Positions 42,754 through 51,300 of a DNA stretch of 64,000 nucleotides are shown here, in pieces. Source of the stretch: the human T2T-CHM13v2.0 reference genome, Homo sapiens. Position numbers and translations under genes: made by a program. The DNA lies in NCBI RefSeq assembly GCF_009914755.1, contig NC_060939.1. One strand, 5' to 3'. The notes beneath the pieces are model-generated. The model did no database searches and was not told where the DNA came from. It saw only the letters and a list, made by a program, of their open reading frames with translations. Within the stretch, counting starts at the first letter, position 1. Each line of letters begins with the position of its first letter.

Positions 42754-44149
42754 TTTTTTTTGTTTGGTTGTATGTTTTTATTTTTTATTATACTTTAAGT
42801 TTTAGGGTACATGTGCACAACTTGCAGGTTTGTTACATGTGTATACATGTGCCATGTTGGTGTGTTCCACCCATTAACTCATCATTTAACATTAGGCATA
42901 TCTCCTAATGCTATCCCTCCCCCCTCCCCCCACCCCACAACAGGCCCCAGTGTGTGATGTTCCCCTTCCTGTGTCCATGTGTTCTCATTGTTCAGTTCCC
43001 ACCTATGAGTGAGAACATGCGGTGTTTGGTTTTTTTGTCCTTTCGGTAGTTTGCTGAGAATGATGGTTTCCAGCTTCATCCATGTCCCTGCAAGGGACAT
43101 GAACTCATCATTTTTTATGGCTGCATAGTATTCCATGGTGTATATGTGCCACATTTTCTTAATCCAGTTTATCATTGTTGGACATTTGGGTTAGTTCCAA
43201 GTCTTTGCTACTGTGAATAGTGCCGCAATAAACATATGTGTGCATGTGTCTTTATAGCAGCATGATTTATAATCCTTTGGGTACATACCCAGCAATGGGA
43301 TGGCTGGGTCAAATGGTATTTCTAGTTCTAGATCCCTGAGGAATCGCCACACTGACTTCCACAATGGTTGAACTAGTTTACAGTCCCACCAACAGTGTAA
43401 AAGTGTTCCTATTTCTCCACATCCTCTCTAGCACTTGTTGTTTCCTGACTTTTTAATGATCACCATTCTAACTGGTGTGAGATGGTATCTCATTGCGGTT
43501 TTGATTTGCATTTCTCTGATGGCCAGTGATGATGAGCATTTTTTCATGTGTCTTTTGGCTGCATAAATGTCTTCTTTTGAGAAGTGTCTGTTCATGTCCT
43601 TCACCCACTTTTTGATGGGGTTGTTTTTTTCTTGTAAATTTGTTTGAGTTCATTATAGATTCTGGGTATTAGCCCTTTGTCAGATGAGTAGATTGCAAAA
43701 ATTTTTCTCATTCTGTATGTTGCCTGTTCACTCTGATGGTAGTTTCTTTTGCTGTGCAGAAGCTCTTTAGTTTAATTAGATCCCATTTGTCAATTTTGGC
43801 TTTTGTTGCCATTGCTTTTGGTGTTTTAGACATGCAGCCCTTGCCCATGCCTATGTCCTGAATGGTATTGCCTAGGTTTTCTTCTAGGGTTTTTATGGTT
43901 TTAGGTCTAACATATAAGTCTTTAATCCATCTTGAATTAATTTTTGTATAAGGTGTAAGGAAGGGGTCCAGTTTCAGCTTTCTACATATGGCTAGCCAGT
44001 TTTCCCAGCACCATTTATTAAATCGGGAATCCTTTCCTCATTTCTTGTTTTTGTCAGGTTTGTCAAAGATCAGATGGTTATAGATGTGTGGTATTATTTC
44101 TGAGGGCTCTGTTCTGTTCCATTGGTCTATATCTCTGTTTTGGTACCAG
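42754..44149 (-). mobile_element. 5'-truncated L1 (L1PA4/5-like), ~1.4 kb, abutting the PAK2 retrocopy
   Basis: Poly(T) plus reverse 3'UTR at the left end; ORF2 peptides WIKKMWHIYTMEYY and [12 protein letters not shown]; ends at tggtaccag with no TSD. Confidence 0.97.
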
Positions 44150-44240
44150 GCGCCTCCGCAACCTCCCAGGAGCTCTGACCAAGGCGCCTCACTGGGGTGG
44201 GGAACTTGCCTCACCTGGGGCCATTTCATAATTCTGAATC

Positions 44241-44990
44241 ATGTGTGATAACGGAGAACTGGAAGACAAGCCTCCAGCACCTCCCGTGCGAATGAGCAGG
44301 ACCATCTTTAGCACTGGAGGCAAAGACCCTTTGTCAGCCAATCACAGTTTGAAACCTTTGCCTTCTGTTCCAGAGGAGAAAAAGCCCAGGCATAAAATCA
44401 TCTCCATATTCTCAGGCACAGAGAAAGGAAGTAAAAAGAAAGAAAAGGAACGGCCAGAAATTTCTCCTCCATCTGATTTTGAACACACCATCCATGTTGG
44501 CTTTGATGCTGTTACTGGAGAATTCACTGGCATGCCAGAACACTGGGGTCGATTACTACAGACCTCAAATATCACCAAACTAGAGCAAAAGAAGAATCCT
44601 CAGGCTGTGCTGGATGTCTACGACTCCAACACAGTGAAGCAGAAGTATCTGAGTTTTACTCCTCCTGAGAAAGATGGCTTCCCTTCTGGAACACCAGCAC
44701 TGAATGCCGAGGGAACAGAAGCACCTGCAGTAGTGACAGAGGAGGAGGACGATGATGAAGAGACTGCCCCTCCCGTTATTGCCCCACCACCGGATCATAT
44801 GAAATCAATTTACACACGGTCTGTAATTGACCCTGTTCCTGCACCAGTTGGTGATTCAAATGTTGATGGTGGTGCCAAGTCTTTAGACAAACAGAAAAAG
44901 AAGACTAAGATGACAGATGAAGAGATTATGGAGAAACTAAGAACTATAGTGAGCATAGGTGACCCTAAGAAAAAAATATACAAGATATGA
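44241..44990 (+). pseudogene. PAK2: Open 249-aa N-terminal half of the PAK2 retrocopy (SH3 ligand, CRIB/PBD, partial autoinhibitory domain)
   Basis: Native ATG position; [17 protein letters not shown] intact; 3-aa deletion (LKF); ends 4 codons after the frameshift. Confidence 0.9.
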
Positions 44991-48277: not shown

Positions 48278-48594
48278 TTTTTATTTTTTATTTTTATTTT
48301 TTTTTTTTTTTGATACAGAGTCTCACTCTGTCACTTAGGCTGGAGCGCAGTGGCATGATCTCAGCTCACTGCAACCTCCGCTTCCTGGGTTCAAGCAATT
48401 CTCATGCCTCAGCCTCCTGAGTAGCTGAGACCACAGGTGTGTGCCACCACACCCAGCTAATTTTTTGTATTTTTAGTAGAGACAGAGTCTCACCATGTTG
48501 CCCAGGCTTGTCTCCAACTCCTGAGCTCAGGCAATCTGCCCACCTTGGCCTCCCAAAGTGCTACAATTACAGGCACGAGCCACTACACCTGGCC
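48278..48594 (-). mobile_element. Alu within the PAK2-derived 3'UTR
   Basis: Reverse dimer; TSD tcatgtttttt. Confidence 0.95.
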
Positions 48595-49988
48595 TCATGT
48601 TTTTTAAATAATTGCCTTTTATATTTACCCTTTTTGTCATCACTTTAGAATGAAAATTCCCATTTAAATCTAAAAGTTACTTTAATAGTCCTCTTGTGTT
48701 ATTAGGACAGTGTTACTATAGTACTTATTTATTATATTTTAGACTTTTTCTTTTTTCTTCTGCTGCTTTTAGGGACAGTTAAAACTGGGAAACTATGAAA
48801 CATGGAACATTTTATCCTACCTAGAATAGTAAATGAGTAATTGTGAAGCGTAAGACACCGAGGCTAATACAACTCTGTCTTCATGTGTCGAGTGCCTGGC
48901 ACATAGTACTAATTCTCTTCCCTTTAACATATAAATGTTAAGCTGCTTAGAGTCTAGTAACCACCAACTGTAAATGAGCCTGTGCCTTTAACAAGAAATT
49001 TTAAACTACCTATGAGTATTTCTTTATAGGGCTCACTTAAATACGTTTGTATATACTGTATTCTAGCCAGAATAATTTTAGATCTGATCAGGTAGTAGCT
49101 AAAATTAGAAAAAAACAAAATAGATGCTTAAAGAATTTGCATCCATTTTTGAGTCTAAATCTTTTTAAATATACTGAGATCCACATCTAGTGAAATGTCA
49201 GTGTCAAAATATTATAGATTATAGCTAAAATCCAGATTAATACTCATTTGGGGTTTTTTATAGTGGAACTTCATAGTAATACAAGAAGCAGATTGTCTTC
49301 CTGTCTCTGCTGCTCCCACAGTAGGTATTGAAACTGGTGAAATCAGTTTTTTGATAGTGTGTGTATATAAGAAAAAATATATACACACATTCTTTTTTCT
49401 CAGTCAACACACTGATTGAACACTCTGGCAAAGATGCTGTGGTAGACGAGGTTGGAGTTAGAAAGAAGAAGCAAGCACTGGCCTGGCCTTGAAAGAACGG
49501 AAGTCTTTCCCATTCACTTCTCTAGAATGCTGCCAAGACAGAGGCAGAAAGAAATGGATGATAATTCTGTCAAGCACACTTCTATTCTTTATTAAGAGAA
49601 GCAATTATGTTTGGAATTCAGCATCTTTGGTTGGAACGCATTGGCTTTTTTTTCTTGTTGTGATAGAAATGGAATTAAGTAAAATTATAGTTTGTCTTTT
49701 CTGTTGTCTTCAAATTTTATAATGTCTTTTATTTTTAATTTAATCCCATTCAATTATTTAATTGTTATACATTGACATTAACTGCTGTATTTTATGACTT
49801 TGTTCAATAATTTTGTTCTTTCAGGGCTAGAAATAAACTTTTTTAAGAAATGTGCATTTTTCCCTTTCCTAAACTTTTATTCTTTCTTTTGATCAGAATA
49901 GCATAAAAGAATAGTTAAATGTCTTAATAGGTTTTCAAAGAACATTCTAGTATCTTTAGTGATAAATGTTTTAAACCTTTAAAAAAAA

Positions 49989-51300
49989 TAGAATAGTATA
50001 GCACTGGCACATGAATAAGCAAATCTAGAGAATAGAGCACGGAATCTAGAATTACATCCAAGTACACATAAGAGCCTTATATATGACAAAATGAGCTTTT
50101 AATTCAGTACATCTCCATTAAAAACCCCATGTAAAAATACAAATTTAGACTATTTATATATTTTTTAAATTTCAGGTGAATTAAATATTTTTGTTTTGTT
50201 TTGTTTTTTGAGACAGAGTCTCACTCTGTTGCCCAGGCTGGAGTGCAGTGGCACGATCTCGGCTCACTGCAACCTCCATCTCTGGGGTTCACGCCATTCT
50301 CCTGCCTCAGCCTCTCGAGAAGCTAGGACTACAGGCGCCCGCCACCACGCCTGGCTAATTTTTTGTATTTTTAGTAGAGATGGGTTTTCACCGTGTTAGC
50401 CAGGACGGTCTCGATCTCCTGACCTCGTGATTCGCCCGCCTCGGCCTCCCAAAGTGTTGGGATTACAGGCGTGAGCTACTGCGCCCGGCCAATATTTTTA
50501 AATAAACCTATAAAAATTCCAGAAGGAAGCCCTTGGTGAAGATCTTCTCACTTAAGAACGACAGAAAACAAACCACCTATTTTATAAAAAACAAGTATAT
50601 CTCGCTATGTAAACCATAGCAGAAAGACAAACTAAAGACTGGAAAAAATATTTACAGTATATATAATATCTAAAAGTTGATCATATTAAAATGGACATAT
50701 GCAAAGGCTACGAATTGCCAATTCATAGTAGACGGTATGCAGACCCATCATTTGAAGAGATGCAAGTAGAATTCTTTTTTCTTGTTCCAACAAAATCTAG
50801 ATAATTCAAATTAAACTAAAATGGCATCATTTTTAGCCTTCAGGTGAGCAGCAATAGAAAACAAAATATTAACTCAGTGCTGGCAATTGGCACTGTTACC
50901 ATTCTAAATCACCACAAATATTTTAGAAATAAATTAGCAATTATCTATTAAAATGAAAACTGCATATACCTTTGACCCAAAAATCCTATTTTCAAAAATG
51001 TATCTGACAGAAAAAAAACAAAAGCATCAGCATATAGTGATACTTCTACAATGATGTTTACTGAAATATTATTTATAGTGACAAAAATAAAAACTGAAGA
51101 CATTCAGATGTCTATTAGCAGGGAAACACATCTGAATAATGTATATTTTATTTTACTTTTTTCAGGCAAGAAAGCTTACATACATTTATTTTTGTTTATA
51201 TATGTTTGTGTGTACCAAAAAGGATGATAGAAGGATGTTCTGTGCATATTAAATTGGTTACTCAGGAGGGTGAGGGGGTAAGGGGATACTACTAGTTTTT
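49989..51300 (+). mobile_element. Old L1M ORF2/3' fragments
   Basis: aatagtatagcactggcac...tatgacaaa; tgcatatacctttgaccca. Confidence 0.7.
50187..50490 (-). mobile_element. AluY
   Basis: ttcacgccattctcc, ccgtgttagccagga diagnostics; CpG-rich; TSD aatatttt. Confidence 0.95.

What the first reader, a model, noticed from the sequence alone, without database searches (positions are those of the whole stretch)
44030..50095. Both PAK2 junctions land at the same L1 ORF2 coordinate in two inverted L1s
Seen: on the minus strand the young L1 begins CTGGTACCAAAACAGAGATATAGACCAATGGAACAGAAC...TTTGACAAA. The old L1M right after the PAK2 poly(A) reads tagaatagtatagca-CTGGCACATGAATAAGC...GAATAGAGC...TATGACAAA. 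By eye these align as the same ORF2 segment ([12 protein letters not shown] region), offset by only ~15 nt, about one TSD length. The retrocopy is therefore flanked by an imperfect inverted repeat starting at homologous positions. Inference: this is unlikely by chance in a 6-kb element and hints that L1-L1 homology (fold-back pairing, or L1 RNA/cDNA annealing at the target) positioned the joint. That would be a homology-guided retro-bridging mechanism.
Basis: partly seen in the sequence, partly recalled or inferred. Interest (0 to 1): 0.7.

Follow-up and report, generated by a model that had tools for sequence, protein, structure and literature searches.

The report
Two-tailed retro-bridge at a duplication edge
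A young L1 and a PAK2 gene copy sit head-to-head between chromosome 15 sequence and the exact start of a 26-kb copy of chromosome 2, likely because two simultaneous retrotransposition events were stitched together in an ape germ line; the matching L1 positions that drew attention are real but probably chance.

Summary
The young L1 (minus strand) starts at the last base of ORF2 codon 889. The old L1 behind the PAK2 poly(A) resumes at codon 885, 14 nt upstream.

The 'retro-bridging' half of the reading is well supported. The poly(A) lands exactly on the first base of a ~26-kb copy of chr2q24.3. Chr2 still carries the empty site. No paralogue outside chr15 was found for the left flank, both tails point outward, and no TSD was found. 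The L1/PAK2 joint has 1 nt of overlap, and retrocopy and duplicon are equally diverged (3.6% vs 3.7%). This matches RT-end to RT-end bridges described in tumours and L1-induced cells, here fixed in the germ line.

The 'homology-guided' half is weak. The L1s are 54% identical, no better than shuffles. The homologous site was never the best pairing site (0 of 7 tests), and published assays show that mismatches suppress such recombination. A match within 14 nt would arise by chance about 0.5-0.8% of the time (assumed length distributions), so a causal link is not excluded (~15%).

The parts
34778..42753 (.). Left flank, the target locus of the young L1; no paralogue found outside the two chr15 copies
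   Evidence: 40 best candidates scored in each; other hits are short repeats; searched 30800-38800 and 39700-42745, not 38801-39699
42754..44149 (-). 5'-truncated young L1PA, ~1.4 kb; decayed A-tail at about 42754-42786 faces left; 5' end is the last base of ORF2 codon Y889
   Evidence: best relatives 96% identical over 850 nt; subfamily not typed
44149..44149 (.). Head-to-head L1/PAK2 joint: one shared G, no inserted bases
   Evidence: L1 continuation from two other copies versus the chr3 exon-1 sequence
44149..49980 (+). Spliced PAK2 retrocopy: last 72 nt of exon 1 joined to exon 2, CDS and the long 3' UTR
49981..49989 (+). Short untemplated A-tail (A8, then T); the chr3 gene has only two As at this point
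49990..64000 (+). Copy of chr2q24.3; source chr2:165,430,169-165,456,373 (~26.2 kb), running past the window to chr15:19,978,176, where it ends in serial inverted template switches
49990..51140 (+). Old L1 relic (ORF2 from about codon K885 to its 3' part) inherited from chr2; its upstream part stays on chr2 and is absent here
49990..50003 (+). The 14 nt between the two homologous junction positions; the would-be TSD of the PAK2 insertion (inferred)
50193..50490 (-). Alu present on chr15 and absent from the chr2 source

Best explanation
An L1 and a PAK2 mRNA copy, joined 5' end to 5' end with both tails outward, link a chr15 locus to the first base of a 26-kb chr2q24.3 copy, and they likely formed when two concurrent L1-driven reverse-transcription intermediates were joined by end-joining, without L1-L1 pairing. 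Shown: the anatomy, the empty chr2 site, no TSD found, the 1-nt joint, equal divergence of retrocopy and duplicon, and the template-switch junction at the far end. Inferred, step 1: ORF2p nicked the chr2 bottom strand at a TTCT/GA site inside an old L1 and copied PAK2 mRNA. Step 2: ORF2p nicked locus X and copied an L1 RNA. Step 3: the two cDNA-extended ends were ligated. Step 4: 26 kb of chr2 was carried along or copied and closed by serial template switches, while an intact chr2 was inherited. The matching ORF2 coordinate is read as a coincidence.
For: Homology to chr2 starts at 49990, immediately after the A-tail; chr2 has no PAK2 and its old L1 runs on upstream. No match outside chr15 was found for the left flank. 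The longest word shared by the two flanks is 5 nt; with the far end of the duplicon it is 6 nt. The joint has 1 nt of overlap. Non-CpG divergence is 3.69% (SE 0.16) for the duplicon and 3.62% (SE 0.53) for the PAK2 3' UTR, against 6.3% for the neighbouring chr22 duplicon; best L1 relatives are 96% identical. The joint falls inside exon 1, near the natural cDNA end of a 5.8-kb copy. The same architecture is described somatically: bridges with two tails joined 5' to 5' (10.1101/2024.08.27.596794, passages); RT ends joined with 0 or 6 bp of homology, and junctions with one L1 plus one cDNA and no homology (10.1101/2024.12.14.628481, passages and section 8).
Against: The chr2 site is an imperfect endonuclease motif (TTCT/GA), and such motifs are common there (10 in 700 nt). 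The A-tail is short. No empty allele of the left target is available, so its nick cannot be read. No reciprocal product was found: the chr2 left side is not duplicated among 40 scored candidates. Divergence cannot separate events a few million years apart. The 14-nt match is left unexplained, at under 1% chance per eligible junction.
Confidence: 0.6

Rival explanations
1. Sequential events. A longer chr2 duplicon reached chr15 first and PAK2 inserted into it normally with a TSD. A later L1 insertion with a large target deletion, or a later end-joining deletion, removed the chr2 upstream part, the left TSD and the tip of PAK2.
For: Explains the missing TSD and the 1-nt joint with common single events. 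The region is a mosaic of duplicons of different ages. Dating has a wide error for PAK2 (SE 0.53%).
Against: The deletion would have to end inside PAK2 exon 1, at the very tip of a 5.8-kb copy, and leave no trace of chr2 upstream sequence. Retrocopy and duplicon show the same divergence.
Confidence: 0.22
2. Homology-baited joining. The 14-nt top-strand overhang at the chr2 site is old-L1 sense sequence and annealed to the nascent L1 cDNA at the matching ORF2 position. The PAK2 cDNA end then took over as primer at the next base, and the paired arms were cut away. An equivalent version is excision of a fold-back stem whose base is the PAK2 junction.
For: The offset is 14 nt and in the direction expected for a TSD; TSD-like overlaps of 14 and 16 bp are reported at such breaks. 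9 of the 14 nt match. Chance is 0.2-0.8% under assumed distributions. The downstream arms pair somewhat better than shuffles (7 of 300).
Against: Predicted pairing is -5.5 kcal/mol against -13.9 for a perfect duplex. The homologous site is not the best site in any of 7 overhang definitions within 1.7 kb of L1 (the upstream 300 nt came from another L1 copy). The upstream arms are no better than shuffles and are broken by indels (60 of 300). Simple annealing would join chr2-left to the L1 in the same orientation, which is not what is seen. Three mismatches in 150 bp already reduce cDNA-cDNA recombination through MSH2 (PMC13526784 sections 11, 12). One of two unrelated L1 copies fetched ends 47 nt from the same point, so 5' ends near here may not be rare.
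Confidence: 0.15

Closest known systems
Retrotransposon-mediated rearrangements with two synchronous insertions in tumours (Zumalave et al., bioRxiv 10.1101/2024.08.27.596794; passages seen)
   Same: Two 5'-truncated inserts in inverted orientation, joined at their 5' ends, a tail at each outer end, bridging two distant loci; processed pseudogenes can form bridges.
   Different: Somatic, and usually reciprocal with target-site heteroduplication. Here the bridge is fixed in the germ line, the outcome is a 26-kb duplication with chr2 intact, and no reciprocal product was found.
Primary RT-end to RT-end translocation junctions in L1-induced cells (bioRxiv 10.1101/2024.12.14.628481; passages and section 8 seen)
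   Same: Both TPRT inserts kept in one junction, with 0-6 bp of homology; many junctions hold one L1 and one cDNA without homology.
   Different: Experimental or somatic translocations, not an evolutionary segmental duplication.
Homology-driven recombination of L1 cDNA intermediates (PMC13526784; abstract, sections 11 and 12 seen)
   Same: Two L1-made cDNAs at different loci are joined.
   Different: Promoted by long identical sequence and suppressed by mismatches; here the joined partners share 1 nt and the two L1s about 54%.
Retroelements at segmental-duplication boundaries, lcr16a/SVA (PMC9132208; passages seen)
   Same: Duplication breakpoints overlap retrotransposons or a processed pseudogene; complex template-switch junctions at duplication ends.
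   Different: There the elements pre-exist and recombine or are truncated; here the retrocopy's tail is the boundary and the source locus lacks it.
Twin-primed (5'-inverted) L1 insertion (established knowledge, recalled)
   Same: Two oppositely oriented cDNAs joined internally with minimal microhomology.
   Different: Twin priming uses one RNA, has one tail and has a TSD at one locus; here there are two RNAs, two tails, two loci and no TSD found.

Membership tests
Processed pseudogene (L1 trans-retrotransposition) | Spliced exons | tested here: met
   exon 1 (chr3:199,459,464) joined to exon 2 (chr3:199,502,047)
Processed pseudogene (L1 trans-retrotransposition) | Untemplated poly(A) | tested here: met
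   A8 against two genomic As
Processed pseudogene (L1 trans-retrotransposition) | Target-site duplication | tested here: not met
   longest shared word between the outer flanks is 5 nt; the 5' neighbour is L1 sequence, not the chr2 site
Two-insert retrotransposon bridge (RT end to RT end) | Joins two distant loci | tested here: met
   right flank is chr2q24.3; left flank is not found there
Two-insert retrotransposon bridge (RT end to RT end) | Two inserts joined 5' to 5', tails outward, little or no homology | tested here: met
Two-insert retrotransposon bridge (RT end to RT end) | Endonuclease motif at both tails | tested here: inconclusive
   chr2 site TTCT/GA is imperfect and such motifs are common; the left site shows a pyrimidine run but has no empty allele
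Two-insert retrotransposon bridge (RT end to RT end) | Synchrony of the two insertions | tested here: inconclusive
   equal divergence of retrocopy and duplicon and L1 relatives at 96% fit, but cannot resolve a few million years
Two-insert retrotransposon bridge (RT end to RT end) | Reciprocal junction with heteroduplicated target sites | tested here: not met
   not found in this genome; it need not survive in an unbalanced germ-line outcome
Homology-mediated L1 recombination | Long near-identical sequence at the joint | tested here: not met
   1 nt at the joint; 49 of 90 between the L1s
Homology-mediated L1 recombination | Chimeric L1 in direct orientation as product | tested here: not met
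   the L1s are inverted and 5.8 kb apart
Homology-mediated L1 recombination | Genome-wide excess of coordinate-matched junctions | not testable with these tools
Twin priming | Both pieces from one RNA, one tail, TSD | tested here: not met

The most novel reading that the evidence does not exclude
The TSD-length overhang of a retrocopy insertion inside an old L1 acted as bait for a second, unrelated L1 cDNA at the homologous ORF2 position, and the three-way intermediate was resolved into an inverted L1/mRNA bridge that launched an interchromosomal segmental duplication. Highly diverged L1 relics would then steer where concurrent retrotranspositions join.
Probability: 0.15. Interest if true: 0.8.

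Novelty: new variant of a known kind. Interest (0 to 1): 0.5.

Why it matters
Two-tailed L1/cDNA bridges are known from tumours and cell lines. This locus looks like a fixed germ-line example in which the bridge is the exact edge of a pericentromeric segmental duplication, with the empty source site still readable on chr2. If right, concurrent retrotransposition is one way interchromosomal duplications start, and duplication edges can be screened for outward-facing tails. None of my 10 literature searches listed a paper describing this junction, but the library lacks most subscription papers. The 2q24.3 and 3q29 paralogies of this region are already listed in PMC3171312 (passages).

Tried and rejected
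Direct DNA alignment as proof of homology: not significant; the mapping rests on the profile and the chr2 source.

A single insertion with a TSD around L1+PAK2, or around L1+PAK2+the whole duplicon: no shared word over 5-6 nt (only 900 nt around the far junctions were read).

The A-run as genomic PAK2 sequence: rejected. Twin priming: rejected, because there are two RNAs and two tails.

A reciprocal product elsewhere in this genome: not found. The source of the left flank: not found.

PDB matching of the chr2 relic: the RT-domain piece matches ORF2p 684-727 only weakly (E 0.36, below summed polyubiquitin artefacts), and the 26-residue junction piece gave no hit. The protein-level tblastn hits are individually weak (E 0.015-0.77) but collinear.

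An empirical count of L1 5' ends near this coordinate could not be made beyond 2 copies.

PMC10648317 and PMC7073761 do not mention PAK2 or 2q24 in their main text; PMC13141329 passages were not relevant. No supplements were read; supplementary tables of the two preprints may list closer L1+pseudogene bridges. Earlier scan findings were not available.
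Full report
Observation. The young L1 lies on the minus strand at 42754-44149, with its decayed tail at the left. Its first full codon is ORF2p W890. Two other genomic copies show that 44149 is the last base of Y889. Behind the PAK2 tail, 49990 onward is an old plus-strand L1. Alone it aligns to the young L1 at 49 of 90 bases, no better than shuffles (102 of 300). A profile of five old L1 copies from loci already fetched, plus the young L1, places it: 0.6 bits for the window piece (1 of 1000 shuffles) and 10.7 bits for the chr2 source site with 60 nt more (0 of 1000). 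The junctions are 14 nt apart, the old one upstream.

The right flank is a copy of chr2: 95% over 50500-51850, continuous from 49990 to the window end, and ending near chr2:165,430,169, about 26.2 kb in all. Chr2 homology begins at the base after the tail. On chr2 there is no PAK2, and the old L1 continues upstream into RT-domain sequence (weak PDB match to residues 684-727). The left flank matches only the two chr15 copies, and further left lie older chr22 and chr13 duplicons. So L1 plus PAK2 sit exactly on a duplication boundary. The second chr15 copy differs by 0.18% at non-CpG sites and has the same three junctions, so it is the same event, not a replicate.

Junction anatomy. PAK2 is spliced, begins with the last 72 nt of exon 1, and ends in an untemplated A8. 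The L1/PAK2 joint shares one G. No TSD was found between the two flanks, or between the left target and the 900 nt read at the far end of the duplicon. The implied chr2 nick is TTCT/GA, an imperfect endonuclease site; 10 similar motifs occur in 700 nt. The far end of the duplicon is a forward run, a 26-nt jump and two inverted pieces, which is the pattern of serial template switching (inference; compare PMC9132208, passages). The chr2 sequence left of the nick is not duplicated among 40 scored candidates.

Dating. Non-CpG divergence is 3.69% (SE 0.16, 13,561 sites) for the duplicon and 3.62% (SE 0.53, 1,244 sites of the 3' UTR end) for PAK2, against 6.3% for the chr22 duplicon. The best L1 relatives are 96% identical. 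This fits one event; by recalled ape divergences it falls roughly 15-20 million years ago. It does not prove synchrony.

Mechanism. The architecture matches somatic bridges in which two TPRT intermediates at different loci are joined by their cDNA ends. Examples are two tails on one bridge with 5'-5' joints (10.1101/2024.08.27.596794, passages), and RT-RT joints with 0 or 6 bp of homology and L1-plus-cDNA junctions without homology (10.1101/2024.12.14.628481, passages and section 8). I give this 0.6. A sequential history gets 0.22. It needs a later deletion to end inside exon 1 and remove all chr2 upstream sequence.

Does the coordinate match mean anything? In its favour, the offset has the size and sign of a TSD, so the young L1 begins where the top-strand overhang of the chr2 site would end. 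9 of those 14 nt match the L1, and the chance is 0.2-0.8% under assumed truncation distributions. Against it, the predicted duplex is -5.5 kcal/mol (perfect -13.9), and the homologous site ranks 5, 2, 6, 6, 9, 12 and 5 in seven overhang definitions over 1.7 kb, never first (the 300 nt upstream were taken from another copy, since the element's own upstream part is gone). The upstream arms pair no better than shuffles (60 of 300), the downstream arms slightly better (7 of 300). Annealing of that overhang would give a same-orientation chr2-L1 chimera, not the inverted PAK2 joint, so a three-way intermediate must be added. Three mismatches in 150 bp already reduce cDNA recombination (PMC13526784, sections 11 and 12). 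One of two unrelated copies fetched ends 47 nt from the same position. The pattern was also picked after the fact from a very large scan. I give a causal link 0.15.

Verdict. It is a new variant of a known kind: a germ-line, two-tailed L1/mRNA bridge forming the edge of a segmental duplication. Ten literature searches listed no description of this junction; the paralogies themselves are listed in PMC3171312 (passages). Left open: ape orthologues, formal subfamily typing, and the genome-wide null.

Noticed in passing
window 24303-25304: A second young L1 with a classic 5' inversion: L1 positions 362-829 in one orientation and 836-1365 in the other, 93-96% identical to the L1 at 42754.
   Followed up: no
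chr15:19,976,193-19,978,176 (L065, L066; 10-12 kb past the window): Far end of the chr2 duplicon: forward run, 26-nt jump, then two inverted pieces, followed by unrelated sequence with repeated CCAAT-like words.
   Followed up: partly
window 44241-45808: The PAK2 retrocopy keeps an open frame of about 250 codons from the start, shifts frame at the A-run near 44970, and keeps the kinase part open in another frame. Several kinase motif residues look changed (parent residues recalled). RefSeq predicts it is transcribed.
   Followed up: no
L044, chr2:178,489,353-178,489,776: Another 0.4-kb copy of the PAK2 3' UTR, 90% identical.
   Followed up: no
window 34778-42753: About 8 kb of repeat-rich sequence with no paralogue found outside the two chr15 copies, between a chr22 duplicon and the L1; possibly the original acceptor locus.
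   Followed up: partly
window 30800-34777: Older duplicon shared with chr22:30.36 Mb (88%) and in part with chr13:18.07 Mb (92%).
   Followed up: no
L028, chr2:165,456,374 region: The old L1 on chr2 has a gap of about 6 nt right at the inferred nick and a larger gap about 50 nt upstream; it is unknown whether this is ancient decay or a scar.
   Followed up: no
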